Positions 163 to 9,432 of a stretch of 9,467 nucleotides of DNA are shown here, in pieces. The stretch is from the IMG/VR virus record IMGVR_UViG_2695420579_000007, one strand, 5' to 3'. This stretch comes from a virus. Lineage: Duplodnaviria > Heunggongvirae > Uroviricota > Caudoviricetes. The position numbers were made by a program, and so were the translations under genes. How positions within the stretch are numbered: the stretch's first letter is position 1; each line of letters starts with the position of its first letter. The notes under the pieces are model-generated. The model saw only the letters and a program-made list of their open reading frames with translations. It ran no database searches and was not told where the DNA came from.

Positions 163-540
163 TCAAATCCCCAGTGAAGTCACCATTGTCCTGAGAACTT
201 GCAGAACGTCATGATCATAACTTCCATCCAAACCGCGACGGCGAATTGCTTCTCGTATTACCGGAAGCAGTTCGCTGGAAATCTCGGTGCATATTTCACC
301 TGATAATACGCTTGGCTCAAGTGAGAATATTGGTGAACTTACGGTCTTGGTCTCGACAGTTTCAGAGTCAGTGCCAACATTATAAAGCTCAACGAAAGCG
401 GTCTTGATTTTCCGGGCCAGATCTTTTGCTGGCTCGCTTGCAATATCTTTCCCGATTTCTCGCAGCACAGAATGCAATGTATGAGCTGCTGTTTTCTGTA
501 CATCAGACGGTAAATCTTTAAATTCCATCGTCAGCCTCAT
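163..540 (-). CDS. hypothetical protein (125 aa; possibly 121 aa from ATG at 528), distal gene of a two-gene early-left cassette
   Basis: ORF in track. Start ATG at 540-538 overlaps the upstream stop (TGATG); an internal ATG at 528 has a better SD (GAGG about 7 nt upstream). Acidic protein with no motif I recognise. Same strand as and downstream of the OL-like operators. Confidence 0.5.
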   Translation of the reverse strand: MRLTMEFKDLPSDVQKTAAHTLHSVLREIGKDIASEPAKDLARKIKTAFVELYNVGTDSETVETKTVSSPIFSLEPSVLSGEICTEISSELLPVIREAIRRRGLDGSYDHDVLQVLRTMVTSLGI

Positions 541-746: not shown

Positions 747-873
747 AGTTAAAGATTGAACCCTGCCGTCATGTTCTTACGCCTCGGGCTGGCTACTTAA
801 CCCCTGACCACTGTCTGGTAACTCGAAGTATTGCCCTGCATTCTGTGGGGCGGGGTGGGTTGACGCCTGAAAC

Positions 874-915
874 AATAGCATCATTATTTTTTTTGATGTA
901 AATAGCATCGCTATT
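874..915. promoter_or_regulatory. OL-like operator pair, probable early-left promoter region
   Basis: Two 15-bp dyads: AATAGC-ATC-ATTATT at 874-888 and the perfect dyad AATAGC-ATC-GCTATT at 901-915, 27 bp centre to centre. Same consensus (AATAGY-N3-RCTATT) as the two dyads between the divergent regulator genes at 2012-2051. Lies between the terminator and the leftward cassette. Confidence 0.5.
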
Positions 916-930
916 GTTTTTTGTTGGGGC

Positions 931-955
931 AAGAAAAAACCACCCTAAGGTGGTT
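931..955 (-). terminator. Rho-independent terminator of the regulator-antitoxin-toxin operon
   Basis: On the minus strand: stem AACCACC / GGTGGTT with a 4-nt loop (938-955), followed by a U-run (TTTTTTCTT, reverse complement of 931-939). Begins 17 nt after the toxin stop at 972. Confidence 0.55.
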
Positions 956-971
956 CTGTCGGCGGGAATAA

Positions 972-1262
972 TTAACTGTTTTTGCCTGGATACTGTCTTC
1001 GAGAATGCACAATATTTACTACTTCTATGCTTGATGCTGTTACTCGGTAAAGGATGATGTAGTTAGGATGAGTTACAATTTCACGAAGACCAAGAACTCG
1101 CTCGCTTGGAGGATACAGGTAAGGATGCTCTGTGAGCGGCAAAACGGATGTTTCAATTCGAATTTTCATTCTGCGTGCTGCCGCGGGATTTTCTTTAGCT
1201 ATGTAGGCTACGATCTGGCGCAAATCATCACGAGCAGATGGTAGCCATAAAACGGGTAACAT
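972..1262 (-). CDS. parE: ParE/RelE-fold type II toxin (96 aa), ParE2-like
   Basis: 96-aa ORF with the characteristic C-terminal region (LREIVTHPNYIILYRV...IEVVNIVHSRR). Start overlaps the upstream antitoxin stop (TAATG). Third gene of a regulator-antitoxin-toxin operon, as in the paaR-paaA-parE systems of E. coli O157 prophages. Confidence 0.85.
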   Translation of the reverse strand: MLPVLWLPSARDDLRQIVAYIAKENPAAARRMKIRIETSVLPLTEHPYLYPPSERVLGLREIVTHPNYIILYRVTASSIEVVNIVHSRRQYPGKNS

Positions 1263-1456
1263 TATTCACCTCTGTGAGTTGCAGCAGCAATTTGGGCAAT
1301 AATTTGTTCCATTTCCGCCATTACCTCATCATGCGGAATCGCCGGGCGGGGATCCGCGAGGCTTGCTGCTACTTTGGCCCGCAGCCATTCGTTGTAACTA
1401 TTTTCTTGCTCAACTGTCTCAAATTCTGAAACCATTGGGGAAAGGACTGTACTCAT
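1262..1456 (-). CDS. paaA: PaaA-like antitoxin (64 aa)
   Basis: Small acidic protein (SPMVSEFETVEQENSYNEWLRAKVA...) immediately upstream of and overlapping the ParE-like toxin gene. AGGAGA SD about 12 nt upstream of ATG 1456. Closely matches PaaA2 antitoxin as I recall it. Confidence 0.8.
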   Translation of the reverse strand: MSTVLSPMVSEFETVEQENSYNEWLRAKVAASLADPRPAIPHDEVMAEMEQIIAQIAAATHRGE

Positions 1457-1475
1457 TTTACATATCTCCTCTGAT

Positions 1476-2006
1476 TTAGGCGCGACGGCCTTTTTGTGCA
1501 GCTAACCACCGCGCAACCGTACGATCCATTGATTCTTTTTTATCTTTCATCTCCTGAAGCATGTGTTCTTGATCTTCTTTCGGAAAAGCTCTGAACGTAT
1601 GGATTAAATCTCGTTCCATCGGCTCTACGGCAAACGGTAGTTCATCCTCTGTTTGTTCTGTGTCTGCTGGTAATGCGACTATGTTATCTTGCTGTGGTTC
1701 TCGACAATACATCCTTGCAATTTGCAGCAAATCTACCATGTCTGGCCTGATTGACTCAGGGGGAACTTTCAGTAAGCCAGCAAACTTTAGAACAGCCTCA
1801 AGGTTTAGTGGGGTTTGACCATTTAGGTAGTGACTTACCGCCCCTTGTGTTGAAAACCCCATAATTTCCGCCGCACGTTCCTGAGTCAATCCCAACTGAG
1901 ATTTCTTTGCCATCCAGATTTCTTTCAGTCTTCTGGCGGCGTTGAGGTCGGTGTCTGACAATGATTTTCTTTTCATACATCCAATTCTAATAAGATTGCT
2001 AATCAC
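1476..2006 (-). CDS. paaR: CI-type HTH (XRE-family) transcriptional regulator, PaaR-like prophage repressor (176 aa; start possibly at the internal Met 11)
   Basis: N-terminal HTH (LTQERAAEIMGFSTQGAVSHYLNG). No S24 peptidase-like C-terminal domain recognisable. First gene of the operon and divergent from the Cro-like gene across an operator-bearing intergenic region. Confidence 0.75.
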   Translation of the reverse strand: MISNLIRIGCMKRKSLSDTDLNAARRLKEIWMAKKSQLGLTQERAAEIMGFSTQGAVSHYLNGQTPLNLEAVLKFAGLLKVPPESIRPDMVDLLQIARMYCREPQQDNIVALPADTEQTEDELPFAVEPMERDLIHTFRAFPKEDQEHMLQEMKDKKESMDRTVARWLAAQKGRRA

Positions 2007-2087
2007 TTTGAAATAGTATCACTATTTACTTTTAAAAATAACAGTGCTATTAATTATGCATTGGTAACACATCACATAGGGCGGATT
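2007..2087. promoter_or_regulatory. OR-like divergent promoter/operator region
   Basis: Perfect dyad AATAGT-ATC-ACTATT at 2012-2026 and near-dyad AATAAC-AGT-GCTATT at 2037-2051, 25 bp apart. Candidate rightward promoter: -35 TTTACT (2025-2030), 17-nt spacer, -10 TATTAAT (2048-2054) overlapping the second dyad. Candidate leftward extended -10 (TGaTACTAT, minus strand) overlapping the first dyad. Confidence 0.45.
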
Positions 2088-2351
2088 ATGAATCTTGGAG
2101 AATATTTGCATCATTTTCATATAACCCAGAGTTCATTTGCTGAGATTGTTGGCGCATCCCAAGGGATGGTCAGCCACGTTATAACGGGGCGTGCAAAACT
2201 TACAGGAGAAAAAATATTACGTTGGTGTGAAGCAACGGGATGGGTGGTGACCCCACATGAGATTGACAGTAAAACCTACCCCAACCCAACTGACGGCTTG
2301 CCTGCTGAGTTTCAGGCTAACACACAACCATCGGCGGGGGTTGATTCATGA
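2088..2351 (+). CDS. ydaS: Cro-like HTH protein (YdaS family), 87 aa
   Basis: Track ORF begins at TTG 2061; I prefer ATG 2088 (MNLGEYL...), which has an SD-like AGGGCGG upstream. HTH segment QSSFAEIVGASQGMVSHVITG. Stop overlaps the next gene start (ATGA at 2348-2351). Confidence 0.7.
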   Translation: MNLGEYLHHFHITQSSFAEIVGASQGMVSHVITGRAKLTGEKILRWCEATGWVVTPHEIDSKTYPNPTDGLPAEFQANTQPSAGVDS

Positions 2352-2773
2352 AAATCAAGCATGAACACATCCGCATGGCGATGAAAGCCTGGGCGCATCC
2401 GGACGGTGAAAAAGTTCCGGCAGCTGAAATAACCAGGGTTTATTTCGAACTGGGAATGACGTTTCCGGTTCTGCATAACGACAGCAAGCACAACACGCTT
2501 TATCTCAACACCCAAAAGATTTTCCGTTGGCTGGATAAAGACACCCCTGACGCTGTTGAAAAAATTCAGGCGTTGTTACCTGCGATCGAAAGGGCAATGC
2601 CACCTCCGCTGGTGGCTCGAATGCGCAGCCACAGTTCAGCTTATTTTCGGGAACTGGTGGAGACGCATGAACGACTGGTGAGAGACGCTGATGATTTTGT
2701 CGCAGTGGCAATCGCCGGTTTCAATCAGATGAACCGTGGTGGCCCGGCAGGAAATGCTGTGGCAGTACATTGA
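2348..2773 (+). CDS. ydaT: YdaT-like protein (141 aa), proposed CII-type regulator of Rac/CP-933P-like prophages
   Basis: N-terminus MKIKHEHI... matches the YdaT family as I recall it. Translationally coupled to the Cro-like gene. Sits where cII sits in lambda. Confidence 0.75.
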   Translation: MKIKHEHIRMAMKAWAHPDGEKVPAAEITRVYFELGMTFPVLHNDSKHNTLYLNTQKIFRWLDKDTPDAVEKIQALLPAIERAMPPPLVARMRSHSSAYFRELVETHERLVRDADDFVAVAIAGFNQMNRGGPAGNAVAVH

Positions 2774-3915: not shown

Positions 3916-4662
3916 ATGAAAAACATTGCGGCAGCCGGGGTTCTTGAACGTATTCACAGACTTGCACCACAGGGGGCGGTTCCACCGTACCGGACGGTGG
4001 AGGAGTGGCGGGAATGGCAACTTGCTGAAGGACGAAAACGCAGCGAGGAGATTAACCGCCAGAATCGCCAGTTGCGGGTGGAAAAAATCCTGAATCGTTC
4101 GGGCATCCAGCCTCTGCACAGCAAATGCTCGTTTGCGAATTATCAGGTGCAGAACGACGGGCAAAAATACGCGCTGAGCCAGGCCAAATCCATAGCTGAC
4201 GAACTGATGACCGGGTGCACGAATTTTGTGTTCAGCGGTAAAACCGGCACCGGGAAAAATCACCTTGCAGCGGCGATGGGTAACCGGCTGATGGCGAAGG
4301 GGCGCAGCGTGATTATCGTCACCGAGTCTGATGTCATGAGCGTGTTGCATGACAGCTACGACAACGGCAAATCCGGTGAAAAATTTTTACAGGAGCTTTG
4401 CGGGGTTGATTTGCTGGTCCTGGATGAAATAGGCATTCAGCGGGAGACGAAAAACGAGCAGGTGGTATTGCACCAGATAATTGATCGCCGGACAGCATCA
4501 CTGTGCAGTGTCGGGATGTTAACAAACCTGAATCATGCCGCAATGAGCACGCTTCTTGGTGAGAGGATTATGGACCGCATGACCATGAACGGTTGTCGGT
4601 GGGTGACGTTTAACTGGGATAGCTGGCGTTCAAATGTCAGCTTTCCGGGAGTTGTGAAGTAA
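3916..4662 (+). CDS. DnaC-like helicase loader (IstB-like AAA+ ATPase), prophage replication protein, 248 aa
   Basis: Walker A (SGKTGTGKNHLAAA) and Walker B (LLVLDEIG) motifs. SD GGGGGTGA upstream of ATG 3916. Follows the O-like gene by 6 nt. Confidence 0.9.
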   Translation: MKNIAAAGVLERIHRLAPQGAVPPYRTVEEWREWQLAEGRKRSEEINRQNRQLRVEKILNRSGIQPLHSKCSFANYQVQNDGQKYALSQAKSIADELMTGCTNFVFSGKTGTGKNHLAAAMGNRLMAKGRSVIIVTESDVMSVLHDSYDNGKSGEKFLQELCGVDLLVLDEIGIQRETKNEQVVLHQIIDRRTASLCSVGMLTNLNHAAMSTLLGERIMDRMTMNGCRWVTFNWDSWRSNVSFPGVVK

Positions 4663-4683: not shown

Positions 4684-5409
4684 ATGGAAACTGTATTTGA
4701 CGCACTGAAAGCACTGAAAAGAGCCTCTTCACATGTGGTGGCGTCCCGCCTTGGAATCAGCCGTGAAGATGCGGTCAACGAACTGTGGAAACTGAAGCGC
4801 CGTGGTGAAGCGGATAACAAGGGTTCGATGTGGTGGCTGATTCAGGCTGGTGAAAGTGAACCAGTGTCACCGGTACCGAAAGTGACAGCGCAAATGCTGA
4901 CTGAGGCGATTGAACAACATGGCCCACAAACGGCGGATGAGCTGGCACTGATGTTCGGGATTACCTCCCGCCGGGCGAATTCATCGCTGGCCATGGCAAT
5001 CAGCAAAGGGCGTCTGATTCGCGTGAATCAGGGCGGTAAATTTCGGTACTGCATACCGGGCGCTGATTTACCGGCAGAGCCGAAAGCCGCATCCATAGCG
5101 GAAACGGATGGTAAAGTCTTTCCTCAGCCAGCAGGTGTTGCGTTACCGGTACAGGAAGCTGCAACACAGGAAGAAATTAAAACAGAAACTGTGGCGGACA
5201 TTGTGCAGTCGTTGCCATCGTTCACCGAAACGCAAGCGGATGACCTGGTTTTACCATCGCTGCATATGGCAAACCGCGAACTGCGTCGGGCGAAAAGTCA
5301 TGTCCAGAAGTGGGAGCGTGTCTGCGCCGCGTTGCGGGAGCTGAACAAGCACCGGGATATTGTTCGACAGATTGTCGATTCCTCCGGTCGTATTGTGTCG
5401 GAAAAGTGA
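4684..5409 (+). CDS. hypothetical protein, possibly winged-helix, 241 aa
   Basis: Track ORF starts at TTG 4666; ATG 4684 has GGAGGA 9 nt upstream. Follows the DnaC-like gene. No catalytic motif recognised. Confidence 0.6.
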
Positions 5410-5424: not shown

Positions 5425-5556
5425 ATGGCAAAAGTATTTACACAGGAAGAGCGGGAAAAAATTAAGGGGCAGGTTGTTGAACTCGTACGCCAGAGTGGGC
5501 GCGAGACGTTACGACAACGCTCCGATGGAAAGCTTCTGGGGAACGCTGAAAAATGA
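5425..5556 (+). pseudogene. truncated 5' fragment of a small gene (31 native codons), fused out of frame to IS600-derived sequence
   Basis: ATG 5425; MAKVFTQEEREKIKGQVVELVRQSGRETLRQ is native up to 5518, then reads IS600 interior to a stop at 5554-5556. 5467-5518 is identical to 9052-9103, where the rest of the gene continues after the N gap. Confidence 0.6.
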
Positions 5557-5756
5557 GAGCCTGAGCCACTATCGTTTTAATAACCGGGATGAAGCCATCT
5601 CAGTAATACGGGAATACATTGAGATTTTCTACAATCGTCAGCGTCGTCACTCTCGTCTGGGGAATATCTCCCCGGCAGCCTTCAGGGAAAAATATCATCA
5701 GATGGCTGCTTAAAAAAAGAACAAATGGTAGTGTCCGCTATTGCCAGTACACCTCA
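5519..5756 (+). mobile_element. partial IS600 copy: 238-bp right-end fragment in inverted orientation relative to the complete IS600
   Basis: Exact reverse complement of 5758-5995, ending in the IS terminus ...CCTCA at 5756. Carries the last 65 codons of the transposase frame. Its inner boundary is an IS-interior position, not an IS end, so it is not a simple transposition product. Confidence 0.8.
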
Positions 5757-5800
5757 NTGAGGTGTACTGGCAATAGCGGACACTACCATTTGTTCTTTTT

Positions 5801-6619
5801 TTAAGCAGCCATCTGATGATATTTTTCCCTGAAGGCTGCCGGGGAGATATTCCCCAGACGAGAGTGACGACGCTGACGATTGTAGAAAATCTCAATGTAT
5901 TCCCGTATTACTGAGATGGCTTCATCCCGGTTATTAAAACGATAGTGGCTCAGGCTCTCATTTTTCAGCGTTCCCCAGAAGCTTTCCATCGGAGCGTTGT
6001 CGTAACAGTTACCTTTACGCGACATTGATGTTTTCAGACCAGACTGCTCCTGTATGACCCGGTAATCGTATGCGCAGTACTGTGAACCTCGATCAGAGTG
6101 GTGGATTAGCCCGGCAGGTGGGCGCTGGCTCCTGAGCGCCATAAACAGGGCTTTACCTGTCAGCTCTTTTGTCATGCGCTCTCCCATGGCGTAGCCGACA
6201 ATTTCGCACGTATAAACATCTTTGATGCCAGCGAGGTACAACCATCCCTCCTGTGTGGCAACATACGTCAGGTCCGCCACCCAGACCTGATTTGGTGCTG
6301 TAGGAGCGAACGTCTGGTTCAGCAGATTTGGCGCAACTGGCAGATTGTGGTTCGAGTTCGTAGTCGCTCTGAACTTGCGTTTCTGCTTACAGCGTAGCCT
6401 TAGCTCCTTACGAAGACGTGCCAGTCGGTCACGACCAACGATGATGCCATTCTCTGCCAGCTCCGTCTGGAGCCGCCGGGTTCCATATGTTTCGCGAGTG
6501 CGGATATGTGCCACCTTAATCTCCAGTTTTAGCCGCTCATCACTTTGTTTTCTGTCTGAGGGTTCATGCTGTACCCAGTTGTAATAACCGCTCCTGGATA
6601 CACCAAATACCTGACACAT
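5801..6619 (-). CDS. IS600 OrfB (DDE transposase catalytic domain), 272 aa as an independent ORF; expressed as OrfAB fusion by -1 frameshifting
   Basis: The OrfB frame is open upstream of ATG 6619 back through the slippery site. Frame is -1 relative to OrfA. Confidence 0.9.
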   Translation of the reverse strand: MCQVFGVSRSGYYNWVQHEPSDRKQSDERLKLEIKVAHIRTRETYGTRRLQTELAENGIIVGRDRLARLRKELRLRCKQKRKFRATTNSNHNLPVAPNLLNQTFAPTAPNQVWVADLTYVATQEGWLYLAGIKDVYTCEIVGYAMGERMTKELTGKALFMALRSQRPPAGLIHHSDRGSQYCAYDYRVIQEQSGLKTSMSRKGNCYDNAPMESFWGTLKNESLSHYRFNNRDEAISVIREYIEIFYNRQRRHSRLGNISPAAFREKYHQMAA

Positions 6620-6654
6620 CGCTTCAATGGGAAATTGTTGTCGCCATTGTTCGA

Positions 6655-6957
6655 TTAACGCGTATTTTTCAGCGACTCCTGTGCAAAATACGCTGTTGCT
6701 TTTTTTAATATATCTCGCTCAAGGCGAGCTTCATTTAACGCCTTACGCAGTTGCAGAATTTCAGATTCCAGTTCAGCCACCGTGCGGGAACCAGGAGTAC
6801 CGAGCCCTTTTCTGGCGGCGGTAACCCATTGTCCTAAAGTGCCTTCAGGAAGAGATAATCGGGAAGCGCCTTCACTGATCGAAAGTTGATTTTCAAGAAC
6901 CGTTCTGACAGCTTCGGCTTTGAACTCTTTAGAGTAACGTTGGGTTTTTCTGCTCAT
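6655..6957 (-). CDS. IS600 OrfA (IS3-family transposase N-terminal HTH protein), 100 aa
   Basis: 100-aa ORF with HTH and leucine-zipper-like C-terminus (LRKALNEARLERDILKKATAYFA). Contains the frameshift heptamer near its 3' end. Confidence 0.9.
   Translation of the reverse strand: MSRKTQRYSKEFKAEAVRTVLENQLSISEGASRLSLPEGTLGQWVTAARKGLGTPGSRTVAELESEILQLRKALNEARLERDILKKATAYFAQESLKNTR
6700..6706 (-). promoter_or_regulatory. programmed -1 ribosomal frameshift slippery heptamer (A AAA AAA, then G) of IS600
   Basis: Minus strand reads TTA AAA AAA GCA in the OrfA frame. The -1 frame is open from here into OrfB (...ILKK then SNSVFCTGVAEKYALIEQWRQQFPIEAMCQVFG...). Confidence 0.6.
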
Positions 6958-7704: not shown

Positions 7705-8451
7705 ATGAAAAATATTGCGACAGGCGGCGTTCTGGAACGCATCCGCCGACTGACCCCGCCACATGTAACCGCCCCATTCAGAACGGTAGCGGAGTGGCGC
7801 GAGTGGCAACTTGCTGAAGGCCAGAAACGTAGCGAGGAGATCAACCGCCTGAATCGCCAGTTGCGGGTGGAAAAAATTCTGAATCGCTCAGGCATCCAGC
7901 CGTTGCACCGTAAATGCTCGTTTGCGAATTACCAGGTGCAGAACGACGGCCAGCGATACGCGTTAAGCCAGGCGAAATCCATCGCCGATGAACTGATGAC
8001 CGGGTGTACAAATTTTGCGTTCAGCGGAAAACCTGGTACCGGGAAGAATCACTTAGCGGCAGCTATCGGGAATCGCCTGCTGAAAGACGGTCAGACAGTG
8101 ATTGTGGTTACCGTGGCTGATGTTATGAGCGCCCTGCACGCCAGCTATGACGACGGGCAGTCAGGCGAAAAATTTTTGCGGGAGCTGTGCGAAGTGGATC
8201 TGCTGGTTCTTGATGAAATTGGCATTCAGCGCGAGACGAAAAACGAGCAGGTGGTGCTGCACCAGATTGTTGATCGCCGGACAGCGTCGATGCGCAGCGT
8301 GGGGATGCTGACAAACCTGAACTATGAGGTGATGAAAACATTGCTCGGCGAGCGGGTGATGGATCGCATGGTCATGAACGGCGGGCGCTGGGTGAATTTT
8401 AACTGGGAGAGCTGGCGTCCGAATGTTAGCCATTCGAGGGTTGTTAAGTAG
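7705..8451 (+). CDS. DnaC-like helicase loader, second paralogue (248 aa)
   Basis: Collinear with the 3916-4662 protein at high identity (roughly 85% by eye); Walker A SGKPGTGKNHLAAA and Walker B LLVLDEIG. Confidence 0.9.
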   Translation: MKNIATGGVLERIRRLTPPHVTAPFRTVAEWREWQLAEGQKRSEEINRLNRQLRVEKILNRSGIQPLHRKCSFANYQVQNDGQRYALSQAKSIADELMTGCTNFAFSGKPGTGKNHLAAAIGNRLLKDGQTVIVVTVADVMSALHASYDDGQSGEKFLRELCEVDLLVLDEIGIQRETKNEQVVLHQIVDRRTASMRSVGMLTNLNYEVMKTLLGERVMDRMVMNGGRWVNFNWESWRPNVSHSRVVK

Positions 8452-8465
8452 TTTCAGGAGGATTT

Positions 8466-8824
8466 ATGGCGAAACCTTTTACTCCCGAACAGCGGGAAGA
8501 ACTGAAGACGCGAATTGTGGAACTCGTGCATCAGGACGGTCGGGTCACGATTCGGCAGTTGTCAGATGAAACAGGTATCAGTCGTGCGTCTGTCGGTCGC
8601 TTATGCATAGAACTGGTCGCAAGTGGTGATGTATATAATTCTGGCTACGGCTTATTCCCGTCTGAACAGGCTCGCAAGGACTGGCAAAGCGCCCGCAAAA
8701 AACTCTCGAGAGTAAAGGTGAGGAAACCGGTTGTTGTTGATCCGGACCTTATCTGGTCATTACCTGACGGAGAAATACGCCGCTACGACAGGCGCCTGAA
8801 TATAATCTGTCGCGAGTGCCGGAA
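8466..8824 (+). CDS. small HTH-like hypothetical protein, paralogue of the gene truncated at 5425; 3' end lost in the N gap
   Basis: ATG 8466 with CAGGAGGA SD. N-terminus MAKPFTPEQREELKTRIVELV. C-terminal half nearly identical to the post-gap copy (ELVASGDVYNSGYGLFPSEQARKDWQ...PDLIWSLPDGEIRRYDR...IICRECRK). Confidence 0.65.
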
Positions 8825-9051
8825 NNNNNNNNNNNNNNNNNNNNNNNNNNNNNNNNNNNNNNNNNNNNNNNNNNNNNNNNNNNNNNNNNNNNNNNNNNNN
8901 NNNNNNNNNNNNNNNNNNNNNNNNNNNNNNNNNNNNNNNNNNNNNNNNNNNNNNNNNNNNNNNNNNNNNNNNNNNNNNNNNNNNNNNNNNNNNNNNNNNN
9001 NNNNNNNNNNNNNNNNNNNNNNNNNNNNNNNNNNNNNNNNNNNNNNNNNNN
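8825..9051. other. assembly gap (227 N)
   Basis: Run of n characters. The flanks are two near-identical gene copies, so this looks like a repeat-induced scaffold break. Confidence 1.
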
Positions 9052-9432
9052 GGGCAGGTTGTTGAACTCGTACGCCAGAGTGGGCGCGAGACGTTACGAC
9101 AACTGGAAGCTAAAACCGGGGCGACAAGATATTTAATAAGCGTTCTCGCCAGAGAGCTGGTTGCCAGTGGGGATGTATACAACTCTGGCTACGGGTTATT
9201 CCCGTCTGAACAGGCTCGTAAGGACTGGCAAAACGCCCGCAAAAAACTCTCGAGGGCAAAGCTGAAGAAACCATCTGTGGTTGATCCGGACCTTATCTGG
9301 TCATTACCGGACGGAGAAATACGCCGCTACGACAGACATCAGAACATAATCTGTCGCGAGTGCCGGAAGAGTGAAGTTATGCAGCGTGTACCGGCTTTCT
9401 ATCAGGGTGATTTTCAGGAGGCGGTACTGTGA
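9052..9432 (+). CDS. 3' portion of the small HTH-like gene whose 5' end is at 5425-5518; partial because the 5' end falls in the gap
   Basis: 9052-9103 is identical to 5467-5518 and the frame continues (GQVVELVRQSGRETLRQLEAKTGATRYLISVLARELVASGDVYNSG...) to TGA at 9430-9432. Confidence 0.6.
   Translation, partial: GQVVELVRQSGRETLRQLEAKTGATRYLISVLARELVASGDVYNSGYGLFPSEQARKDWQNARKKLSRAKLKKPSVVDPDLIWSLPDGEIRRYDRHQNIICRECRKSEVMQRVPAFYQGDFQEAVL

What the first reader, a model, noticed from the sequence alone, without database searches (positions are those of the whole stretch)
972..2773. Three-component toxin-antitoxin operon embedded in the prophage immunity switch
A CI-type regulator, a PaaA-like antitoxin and a ParE/RelE-fold toxin form one leftward operon ending in an intrinsic terminator, divergent from Cro-like and YdaT-like genes. 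This organisation is described for paaR2-paaA2-parE2 of E. coli O157 cryptic prophage CP-933P, where the TA operon takes the place of rexAB and is regulated by a CI/Cro-like bistable switch. So this is a known system type, but it makes the toxin's expression depend on lysogenic state.
Basis: partly seen in the sequence, partly recalled or inferred. Interest (0 to 1): 0.45.

Follow-up and report, generated by a model that had tools for sequence, protein, structure and literature searches.

The report
Prophage repressor operon carrying PaaA-ParE toxin-antitoxin
This is an intact copy of a known arrangement: a lambda-like prophage repressor gene followed in the same operon by a PaaA antitoxin and a ParE toxin, facing Cro-like and YdaT regulators, so it is an ordinary new variant rather than a new kind of system.

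Summary
On the minus strand, a 166-aa repressor (1476-1976), a 64-aa PaaA antitoxin (1262-1456) and a 96-aa ParE toxin (972-1262) are packed as one operon. It ends in a strong hairpin plus U-tract at 931-957. It faces a Cro-like gene (2088-2351) and ydaT (2348-2773).

PaaA and ParE are clear homologues of the E. coli O157:H7 proteins. They are 67% identical to PaaA2 and ParE2. They are 78% and 83% identical to the pair in the second O157 prophage system.

The regulator is not a PaaR2 orthologue. It shares only the C-terminal 44-64 residues with the O157 PaaR regulators, a module that also matches DicA. Its DNA-binding domain is homologous to the lambda CI N-terminal domain. The Cro-like protein is unrelated to CP-933P YdaS.

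A 15-nt operator occurs four times (0.18 expected), only at the OR and OL positions. It was found in 40 of 40 related loci with this DNA-binding domain and in 0 of 40 with other domains.

So this is a heteroimmune variant of the known paaR-paaA-parE immunity module, probably from Shigella sonnei. In related prophages the same slot holds BstA, weak matches to the PD-Lambda-2 and PDC-M66 defence models, or unknown genes. That permits an untested anti-phage reading. Interest is low to moderate.

The parts
872..915 (-). OL/PL-like control region. It holds two operator copies (874-888 and 901-915) and a leftward promoter-like pair: -35 TTTACA (902-897) and TGcTATTGT extended -10 (880-872).
   Evidence: The operator family was found (4 sites, 0.18 expected by chance). 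It occupies the same position in relatives. The promoter hexamers were read from the sequence. The spacer is 19 nt here and 17 nt in relatives.
931..957 (-). Intrinsic terminator of the regulator-paaA-parE operon: AGAACCACC-UUAG-GGUGGUUUU followed by a U-tract.
   Evidence: RNA fold of -15.1 kcal/mol, z = -3.77, and 0 of 200 shuffles fold as well. Conserved in L001 and L002.
972..1262 (-). parE-family toxin gene, 96 aa.
   Evidence: Pfam ParE_toxin 1.8e-17. PDB ParE2 6.7e-37. 67% identical to ParE2 and 83% to the second O157 ParE. dN/dS about 0.06.
1262..1456 (-). paaA-family antitoxin gene, 64 aa, with no DNA-binding domain. Its stop overlaps the parE start (TAATG).
   Evidence: Pfam PaaA2 3e-23. 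PDB PaaA2 1.4e-23. 67% identical to PaaA2 and 78% to the second O157 PaaA. Sequence read.
1465..1471 (-). Shine-Dalgarno sequence GAGGAGA for paaA, in the 19-nt gap after the regulator stop codon.
   Evidence: Read directly from the sequence.
1476..1976 (-). Prophage repressor, 166 aa. It has a lambda CI-type N-terminal HTH domain (about residues 1-90), a disordered linker (92-112) and a DicA/PaaR-type C-terminal helical module (about 117-166). It has no S24 peptidase domain.
   Evidence: PDB lambda CI N-terminal domain 2.5e-9. Foldseek TM-score 0.81-0.93 on the target, rmsd 1.1-2.0 A. The C-terminus is 52% identical to PaaR2 and 56% to the second O157 PaaR. The NCBIfam DicA model matches residues 106-162, at 32 bits, below its 101-bit cut-off. 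AlphaFold model. Start codon as annotated.
1984..2053 (.). OR-like divergent control region. Operators lie at 2037-2051, 2012-2026 and, weaker, 1989-2003. The PRM-like promoter (minus strand) has -35 TTCAAA (2012-2007) and -10 TAGAAT (1989-1984), 7 nt before the regulator ATG. The PR-like promoter (plus strand) has -35 TTTACT (2025-2030) and TGcTATTAA (2045-2053).
   Evidence: Operators. PRM-like hexamers. Sequence. Conserved in L001, L002 and L008. The weak third site and the PR hexamers were read by eye.
2088..2351 (+). Cro-like HTH gene, 87 aa.
   Evidence: Pfam HTH_3 at 4.9e-4, below the gathering score. No similarity to CP-933P YdaS. 35% identical over 68 aa to the YdaS of the second O157 system. 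Start codon as annotated.
2341..2358 (+). YdaT operator OM, TTGATTCATGAAAATCAA, spanning the cro-like stop and the ydaT start.
   Evidence: Exact match to the published 5'-TTGATTN6AATCAA-3' site (PMC9986795). Present at the same junction in CP-933P, phage Evi, the second O157 system and L002.
2348..2773 (+). ydaT, the CII-equivalent regulator, 141 aa.
   Evidence: PDB 3c4r 3.9e-79 and 8bt1 (CP-933P YdaT) 3.1e-70. 77% identical to CP-933P YdaT.

Best explanation
This is the immunity region of a lambdoid, Rac/CP-933-like prophage, probably in Shigella sonnei.

**Proposed mechanism (inferred from CP-933P, not shown for this locus)**
- The CI-equivalent repressor is transcribed leftward from a PRM-like promoter, probably as a leaderless mRNA, together with paaA and parE. 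Transcription stops at the hairpin at 931-957.
- The repressor binds the 15-nt AATAGnnnnnCTATT-type operators at OR (between its gene and the cro-like gene) and at OL (beyond the terminator).
- Binding shuts off the rightward promoter (cro-like, ydaT, replication genes) and the leftward PL-like promoter.
- The Cro-like protein competes at OR.
- YdaT binds its operator at the cro/ydaT junction and, as in CP-933P, would switch on an alternative leftward promoter.
- PaaA has no DNA-binding domain. It neutralises ParE by direct binding.
- Because PaaA is protease-labile in the O157 system, loss of the module would free ParE and kill the cell. The immunity region would then be addictive.

**What is shown by sequence:** gene identities, operon packing, the terminator, the operators and their co-variation with the DNA-binding domain, the YdaT site, and purifying selection.

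**What differs from CP-933P:** the locus is heteroimmune. The segment from the regulator's DNA-binding domain through OR to the cro-like gene is a different type. The regulator's C-terminal module, paaA-parE and ydaT are shared.
For: - **Homology of PaaA, ParE and YdaT to the O157 proteins:**
- **Operon packing and terminator:**
- **Regulator:** N-terminal domain is lambda CI-like by sequence and by predicted fold. The C-terminal module is shared with PaaR2, the second O157 PaaR, and DicA.
- **Operators:** 4 sites against 0.18 expected by chance, and 0 of 200 shuffles reach the observed count. The sites lie only at OR and OL.
- **Operator and DNA-binding domain co-occur:** the motif is present in 40 of 40 IMG/VR loci with the CI-like domain, at both OR and OL. 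It is present in 0 of 40 loci with other N-terminal domains. It is also present in L008/L009, which have the same domain but a different cargo.
- **PRM-like promoter:** the -10 lies 7 nt before the ATG and is conserved in distant relatives. This parallels the experimentally leaderless paaR2 and cI (PMC8630535).
- **YdaT operator:** an exact match to the footprinted site (PMC9986795).
- **Selection:** dN/dS 0.05-0.09.
- **Published basis for the mechanism:** regulation, bistability and addiction of the homologous CP-933P locus are shown experimentally in PMC8630535.
Against: - Nothing has been tested for this locus. Toxicity, neutralisation, co-transcription, the transcription start and operator binding are all inferred.
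- Promoter-like hexamers in the region are no more frequent than chance (3 found, 3.1 expected).
- The PL-like promoter has a 19-nt spacer here, against 17 nt in relatives. It may be weak, or the extra bases may be a homopolymer sequencing error.
- The surrounding prophage is disrupted by an IS element and the scaffold shows assembly problems. The switch may therefore no longer control a lytic programme.
- In CP-933P no ParE2 activity was seen in either transcriptional state (PMC8630535), so the biological role of the toxin remains open.
Confidence: 0.85

Rival explanations
1. PaaA-ParE is mainly a lysogen-expressed anti-phage module, occupying the same niche as lambda rexAB, rather than an addiction module. 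It would be transcribed with the repressor, and infection by another phage would release ParE.
For: In related prophages, the slot directly after repressors with the same C-terminal module holds defence genes or matches to defence models.
- BstA (PADLOC 7e-125), in L016 and L047.
- A HigB/HigA pair matching the PD-Lambda-2 A and B models at about 1e-14, in L010/L011.
- A pair matching the PDC-M66 A and B candidate models at 1e-13 and 5e-19, in L008/L009.
- Unknown small genes in other loci.

Lambda rexAB sits at the same position (PMC8630535).
Against: - This is guilt by position only.
- PADLOC has no model that matches PaaA or ParE.
- Nothing in the literature searched links PaaA-ParE to phage defence.
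- The homologous CP-933P module stabilises a plasmid (PMC8630535), which fits addiction.
- The two roles are not mutually exclusive.
Confidence: 0.25
2. The locus is a decaying remnant. The genes are intact by chance in an IS-ridden cryptic prophage, and neither the toxin-antitoxin pair nor the switch works any more.
For: - An IS3-family element, a second partial replication module and assembly artefacts lie 3-6 kb to the right.
- The PL-like spacer is 2 nt longer than in relatives.
Against: - All five ORFs are full length.
- ParE, PaaA and the Cro-like protein are 100% identical, and the regulator 165 of 166, to those of an E. coli genome.
- ParE, PaaA and the regulator N-terminal domain are 100% identical in six to eight IMG/VR contigs.
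- dN/dS is 0.05-0.09.
- The operators, terminator and YdaT site are conserved.
Confidence: 0.07
3. The 96-aa protein is a RelE-type mRNA interferase rather than a ParE-type toxin that acts on the nucleoid or a topoisomerase.
For: The NCBIfam RelE_StbE subfamily model scores 29.3 bits, just above its 27.9-bit cut-off. RelE and ParE share one fold.
Against: - Pfam ParE_toxin scores 64 bits.
- The best solved relatives are ParE2 (128 bits) and other ParE proteins, and no RelE appears.
Confidence: 0.05

Closest known systems
paaR2-paaA2-parE2 with ydaS-ydaT in the immunity region of E. coli O157:H7 cryptic prophage CP-933P (PMC8630535, PMC9986795; locus L003 here)
   Same: - Same gene order and orientation, and the same slot between the repressor and the DUF1391/dicB side of the prophage.
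- PaaA 67-75% identical, ParE 67%, YdaT 77%.
- Identical YdaT operator at the ydaS/ydaT junction.
- Regulator C-terminal 44 aa 52% identical.
- Regulator lacks an S24 peptidase domain.
- The -10 element sits directly before the regulator ATG, consistent with a leaderless mRNA.
- Operators at both OR and OL.

   Different: - The regulator is 166 aa, against 123 aa for PaaR2.
- Its DNA-binding domain is unrelated to that of PaaR2 at sequence level and is homologous to lambda CI.
- The Cro-like protein has no detectable similarity to CP-933P YdaS.
- The operator sequence differs: AATAGCATCGCTATT-type here, against the GTTTAGTAA half-sites reported for CP-933P.
- The intergenic region is 111 bp, against 97 bp.

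Second O157:H7 three-component system (locus L014), in the prophage next to an 'ECs1072 family' gene. It is presumably paaR1-paaA1-parE1 of CP-933M/Sp4.
   Same: - It carries the closest toxin and antitoxin of the two characterised O157 systems: ParE 83% and PaaA 78% identical.
- YdaT is 81% identical.
- The regulator C-terminal 64 aa are 56% identical.
- The Cro-like proteins are 35% identical over 68 aa.
- The YdaT operator is the same.

   Different: The regulator is 133 aa, with a different XRE-type N-terminal HTH domain. The window's operator motif is absent from it. The assignment of this locus to paaR1 rests on its position and on the statement in PMC8630535. It was not checked against a published sequence.
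Bacteriophage lambda immunity region (cI-rexA-rexB, OR/OL, cro, cII)
   Same: - The regulator N-terminal domain is homologous to the lambda CI N-terminal domain: 31-40% identity, and rmsd 1.1-2.0 A between the model and 1lmb/3kz3.
- The basic N-terminal arm is retained. Acidic residues align with lambda CI E34 and D38, which I know as its positive-control patch (own knowledge).
- Divergent PRM/PR-type promoters overlap the operators, and OL lies beyond the cargo genes.
- The cargo is co-transcribed with the repressor, as rexAB is.

   Different: - There is no C-terminal S24 peptidase/dimerisation domain, so RecA-stimulated self-cleavage is not expected. A short helical DicA/PaaR-type module takes its place.
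- The cargo is PaaA-ParE instead of RexAB.
- The CII role is taken by the unrelated YdaT.
DicA, the repressor of the E. coli K-12 Qin prophage
   Same: The C-terminal module of the regulator (residues 106-162) aligns to positions 74-130 of the 135-position DicA model. DicA occupies the same repressor position in a lambdoid cryptic prophage (PMC8630535).
   Different: The score of 32 bits is far below the model cut-off of 101 bits. The N-terminal domain is different. DicA has no toxin-antitoxin pair downstream (own knowledge).

Membership tests
paaR-paaA-parE three-component toxin-antitoxin system | ParE-family toxin homologous to ParE1/ParE2 | tested here: met
   Pfam ParE_toxin 1.8e-17. ParE2 in PDB 6.7e-37. 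67% identical to ParE2 and 83% to the second O157 ParE.
paaR-paaA-parE three-component toxin-antitoxin system | PaaA-family antitoxin without a DNA-binding domain, encoded directly upstream of parE | tested here: met
   Pfam PaaA2 (PF21217) 3e-23 is the only domain found. PDB PaaA2 1.4e-23. TAATG stop/start overlap with parE.
paaR-paaA-parE three-component toxin-antitoxin system | A regulator gene is the first gene of the same operon | tested here: met
   The gap is 19 nt and contains a Shine-Dalgarno sequence. No terminator-like site was found in it. A single terminator follows parE. Co-transcription itself was not measured.
paaR-paaA-parE three-component toxin-antitoxin system | Regulator homologous to PaaR1/PaaR2 | tested here: inconclusive
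   Only the C-terminal 44-64 residues are homologous (52-56% identity). The N-terminal DNA-binding domain is not. The same C-terminal module also occurs on repressors followed by other cargo.
paaR-paaA-parE three-component toxin-antitoxin system | The toxin is toxic, is specifically neutralised by its PaaA, PaaA is protease-labile, and the module is addictive | not testable with these tools
   These are experimental properties, shown for the O157 systems only (PMC8630535 and the work cited there).
Lambdoid CI/Cro immunity switch | Repressor and Cro-like genes are divergent and share repeated operators that overlap the two promoters | tested here: met
   There are two strong operator copies and one weak copy at 1989-2051, between the two genes. 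They overlap the PRM-like and PR-like hexamers.
Lambdoid CI/Cro immunity switch | A second operator cluster (OL) at a leftward promoter beyond the repressor operon | tested here: met
   Two copies at 874-915, directly after the terminator. The position is the same in 40 of 40 related loci.
Lambdoid CI/Cro immunity switch | Repressor of the lambda CI family with an S24 (LexA-like) self-cleaving C-terminal domain | tested here: not met
   Only the N-terminal domain is CI-like. No peptidase domain appears in Pfam or NCBIfam. The model shows a two-helix C-terminal module. PaaR2 is the same in this respect (PMC8630535).
Lambdoid CI/Cro immunity switch | Leaderless repressor mRNA from PRM | tested here: inconclusive
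   The -10 TAGAAT ends 7 nt before the ATG, with no Shine-Dalgarno sequence. The arrangement is conserved in L008. The transcription start has not been mapped.
YdaT (CII-equivalent) regulon | A YdaT protein, plus a 5'-TTGATTN6AATCAA-3' operator at the ydaS/ydaT junction | tested here: met
   YdaT is 77% identical to the crystallised CP-933P protein. The operator at 2341-2358 is an exact match and is conserved in four other loci.

The most novel reading that the evidence does not exclude
The position just downstream of repressors carrying the DicA/PaaR-type C-terminal module may be a cargo hotspot for lysogen-expressed defence genes, bracketed by OL and OR.

On this reading, PaaA-ParE is one interchangeable anti-phage cargo among several: BstA, genes matching the PD-Lambda-2 and PDC-M66 defence models, and unknown genes. 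It would not be a dedicated 'three-component TA'.

This also argues that PaaR and PaaA are not a split antitoxin. The regulator's C-terminal module travels with the repressor, not with the toxin-antitoxin pair.
Probability: 0.3. Interest if true: 0.55.

Novelty: new member of a known kind. Interest (0 to 1): 0.3.

Why it matters
The locus adds a natural hybrid to a system studied in only one immunity type. The same PaaA-ParE cargo and YdaT are driven here by a repressor whose DNA-binding domain is a true lambda CI homologue with its own operators.

This hybrid gives a way to test whether the bistable, addictive behaviour reported for CP-933P belongs to the cargo or to the switch. It also gives a way to test whether the conserved C-terminal module is a general oligomerisation device.

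The variable cargo at this position in related prophages gives a concrete reason to test PaaA-ParE for phage exclusion.

For genome annotation, these regulators are currently named only 'helix-turn-helix domain-containing protein', and PaaA is named 'RelB family antitoxin'.

Tried and rejected
- **Regulator start codon.** The GTG at 2006 (176-aa ORF) was rejected. It lies inside the operator and -35 region. The closest E. coli annotation starts at the ATG at 1976.
- **Plus-strand promoter-like site at 860-887.** It is not conserved in L002 and points antisense to parE, so it is probably chance.
- **Promoter and terminator scan.** It found no more sites than shuffled sequence, and it missed the real terminator, which I then folded separately.
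- **Rfam.** No RNA family reaches its gathering score anywhere in the window.
- **PADLOC.** No defence model matches ParE, PaaA, the regulator or YdaT.
- **Exact 60-nt OR pattern in the one-genome-per-species collection.** No match, so the source species could not be confirmed this way. Attribution to Shigella sonnei rests on protein names.
- **The search for related loci.** With the C-terminal module it gave only 2 genome loci, but 80 IMG/VR loci.
- **Literature access.** The original 2010 description of the paaR-paaA-parE systems and a PaaR2 crystallisation paper are not held. PaaR2 was instead located through published primer sequences.
- **PaaR2 structure.** No solved structure was found by sequence search.
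Full report

The ORF table shows a 96-aa ORF at 972-1262(-), a 64-aa ORF at 1262-1456(-) and an HTH ORF at 1476-2006(-). Opposite them lie a 96-aa ORF at 2061-2351(+) and a 141-aa ORF at 2348-2773(+).

- The 96-aa protein matches Pfam ParE_toxin (1.8e-17). The 64-aa protein matches Pfam PaaA2 (3e-23). The 141-aa protein matches YdaT_toxin. The two remaining proteins match HTH_3, the second of them below the gathering score.
- Against solved structures, the toxin's best match is ParE2 of E. coli O157 (5cw7, 6.7e-37).
- The antitoxin's best match is PaaA2 (3zbe, 1.4e-23).
- The 141-aa protein's best matches are 3c4r and CP-933P YdaT (8bt1, 3.1e-70).

The closest complete E. coli genome is RMDEC465, 96.7% identical over 900-2850. 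It annotates the regulator from the ATG at 1976 (166 aa) and the Cro-like gene from the ATG at 2088 (87 aa).

The three minus-strand genes are tightly packed. The regulator stop and the paaA ATG are 19 nt apart, with GAGGAG placed 9 nt upstream. The paaA stop overlaps the parE start as TAATG.

Fifteen nucleotides after the parE stop codon, the RNA folds into a 9-bp hairpin followed by a U-tract. It spans 931-957, at -15.1 kcal/mol, with z = -3.8 and 0 of 200 shuffles folding as well. The hairpin is conserved in relatives.

**2. Comparison with the published systems**

The CP-933P locus was located through primer sequences in the supplement of PMC8630535 (locus L003). A second O157:H7 system was found in the same genome, in the prophage carrying an 'ECs1072 family' gene (locus L014). 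PMC8630535 states that a homologue lies on CP-933M, so L014 is presumably paaR1-paaA1-parE1. I did not confirm this against a published sequence.

| Window protein | vs CP-933P (L003) | vs second O157 system (L014) |
|---|---|---|
| ParE | 67% (ParE2) | 83% |
| PaaA | 67% over the full alignment, 75% over 56 aa (PaaA2) | 78% |
| YdaT | 77% | 81% |
| Regulator | 52% over the last 44 aa only (PaaR2) | 56% over the last 64 aa only |
| Cro-like | no detectable similarity (YdaS) | 35% over 68 aa |

The window's toxin and antitoxin are therefore closer to the second O157 system than to PaaA2 and ParE2.

**3. The regulator is modular**

- By sequence, the N-terminal ~90 residues match the lambda CI N-terminal domain (1lmb, 2.5e-9).
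- A tblastn search of 50,697 phage records gives lambda cI itself as the best match (31%).
- An AlphaFold model (mean pLDDT 78.5, N-terminal domain about 90) shows a helical HTH domain, a disordered linker (92-112) and a C-terminal helix-turn-long-helix.
- Foldseek ranks lambda CI N-terminal domain structures first: TM-score 0.81-0.93 on the target, rmsd 1.1-2.0 A, 37-40% identity.
- In the alignment the basic N-terminal arm is retained. Acidic residues align with lambda CI E34 and D38. I know those two residues as the positive-control patch (own knowledge). That the contact with sigma is retained here is inference.
- The C-terminal module matches the C-terminus of the NCBIfam DicA model, but well below its cut-off.
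- No S24 peptidase domain is present. PaaR2 also lacks one (PMC8630535).

A homologue search and alignment show the same ~45-aa C-terminal module joined to at least three N-terminal domain types. These are the CI-like type seen here, an XRE type in 132-133-aa proteins, and the PaaR2 type. Double-HTH forms also exist.

**4. Operators and promoters**

A 15-16-nt near-palindrome of the AAATAGCATCGCTATT type occurs at 874-888, 901-915, 2012-2026 and 2037-2051. Allowing 3 mismatches there are 4 sites, counted as 6 matches over both strands. Chance would give 0.18, and 0 of 200 shuffles reach that count. A weaker copy at 1989-2003 was found by eye.

The sites lie only between the regulator and the Cro-like gene (OR) and just beyond the terminator (OL). 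This is the lambda and CP-933P layout (PMC8630535).

The degenerate motif occurs in every fetched locus with the CI-like N-terminal domain, including L008/L009, where the downstream genes differ. It occurs in none of the other loci fetched up to that point, including CP-933P and L014.

In 80 IMG/VR loci retrieved with the C-terminal module, the motif is present at both OR and OL in 40 of 40 loci with the CI-like domain. It is present in 0 of 40 loci with other domains. These loci are related to one another, so the split is not a set of independent events. Even so, it matches what is expected if this domain reads these operators.

The promoter elements are as follows:
- **PRM-like (minus strand):** -35 TTCAAA at 2012-2007 and -10 TAGAAT at 1989-1984, ending 7 nt before the ATG. 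The arrangement is conserved in L008, where the -10 reads TAAAAT. It matches the experimentally leaderless paaR2 and cI (PMC8630535).
- **PR-like and PL-like:** both read GCTATTTAC(T/A), a spacer, then TGCTATT..., so the operators overlap the -35 and -10 elements. This was read from the sequence.
- **Caveat:** the generic promoter scan is not enriched over chance. These assignments are plausible, not shown.

**5. YdaT site and the mosaic boundary**

The footprinted YdaT operator, 5'-TTGATTN6AATCAA-3' (PMC9986795), occurs exactly once as a perfect match, at 2341-2358, spanning the cro-like stop and the ydaT start. The same site sits at the same junction in CP-933P, phage Evi, L014 and L002.

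An alignment of the four immunity types is divergent to the left of this site and nearly invariant from it rightward. The exchanged immunity cassette therefore runs from the regulator's N-terminal domain, through OR, to the cro-like gene. It is flanked by shared sequence on both sides.

**6. Are the genes maintained?**

Against relatives 74-82% identical in DNA, dN/dS is 0.057-0.059 for parE, 0.054-0.092 for paaA and 0.083 for the regulator.

ParE, PaaA and the Cro-like protein are 100% identical to those of E. coli RMDEC465. The regulator matches at 165 of 166 residues. ParE, PaaA and the regulator N-terminal domain are identical in six to eight IMG/VR contigs. The regulator is named as a Shigella sonnei protein in the protein collection.

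Among 5,426 complete E. coli genomes, 72 carry at least 80% of the 1.95-kb region. The primer-derived paaR2 probe matched 593 genomes. A sequenced phage, Evi, carries the CP-933P type.

**7. The slot after the repressor is variable**

| Loci | Genes directly downstream of the repressor | Evidence |
|---|---|---|
| Window, L003, L005-7, L014, and 69 of the 80 IMG/VR loci | PaaA-ParE | |
| L016, L047 | BstA | PADLOC 7e-125 |
| L010/L011 | HigB/HigA pair matching PD-Lambda-2 A and B models | about 1e-14 |
| L008/L009 | HipA_2 + DUF3037 pair matching PDC-M66 A and B models | 1e-13 and 5e-19 |
| L012/L013, L015, L034, L036-40, L043-44 | unknown genes | |

The sample is ranked by similarity to this window, so the proportions carry no meaning. 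What it shows is that the C-terminal module belongs to the repressor, not to the toxin-antitoxin pair. PaaA-ParE is one of several cargos in a rexAB-like slot. This supports the view in PMC8630535 that the pair was inserted into an immunity region. It leaves open an anti-phage role, for which I found no direct evidence.

**8. Verdict**

The locus is a heteroimmune member of the known paaR-paaA-parE/ydaST immunity-region family. It is intact and under selection, and it lies in a prophage that is otherwise disrupted by an IS element.

The mechanism is inferred from CP-933P. The steps specific to this locus (operator recognition, leaderless start, toxicity) are predictions. Novelty: a new member of a known kind. 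Interest: low to moderate.

Noticed in passing
window 5508-5756 and 5758-6006: A perfect 249-nt inverted repeat around a single N at 5757. It is made of the 3' end of the IS3-family transposase gene joined to its own reverse complement. It looks like an assembly artefact rather than biology.
   Followed up: partly
window 5801-6957: An IS3-family element with orfA (HTH_Tnp_1) at 6655-6957(-) and orfB (rve) at 5801-6619(-). It interrupts the first prophage after its DUF1627 gene.
   Followed up: partly
window 3916-4662 and 7705-8451; also 8606-8824 and 9150-9368; N-run 8825-9051: There are two DnaC/IstB-like replication genes (84% nt identity over 300 nt) and a repeated DUF977 gene segment (89%) on either side of a 227-N gap. 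Two lambdoid replication modules appear to be joined on one draft scaffold.
   Followed up: partly
window 889-900 (A/T run between the two OL operators); L017-L024 around 4711-4739: The spacing of the two OL operators is 24, 25, 27 or 28 nt among contigs that encode identical ParE proteins and identical or near-identical PaaA proteins. It is 27 nt in the window. This makes the PL-like -35/-10 spacer 19 nt here, against 17 nt in E. coli relatives. It is either homopolymer sequencing error or slipped-strand variation that could tune PL.
   Followed up: partly
P0018 and P0020 (244-255 aa); IMG/VR loci L041, L042, L053-L060: Some repressors of this family carry two HTH domains before the shared C-terminal module. 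One form has the CI-like domain plus the XRE domain. In ten other loci a PaaR2-like N-terminal region lies upstream of an XRE HTH, and I did not check whether that is one gene or two.
   Followed up: no
window 163-540(-): A 125-aa ORF downstream of the DUF1391 (ydfA-like) gene has no Pfam, NCBIfam or PADLOC match. It sits roughly where RMDEC465 has ydfB and ydfC.
   Followed up: no
L001 13644-14206: In E. coli RMDEC465, the same prophage carries a second, classical ParD/ParE-family pair about 5 kb to the right of the immunity region.
   Followed up: no
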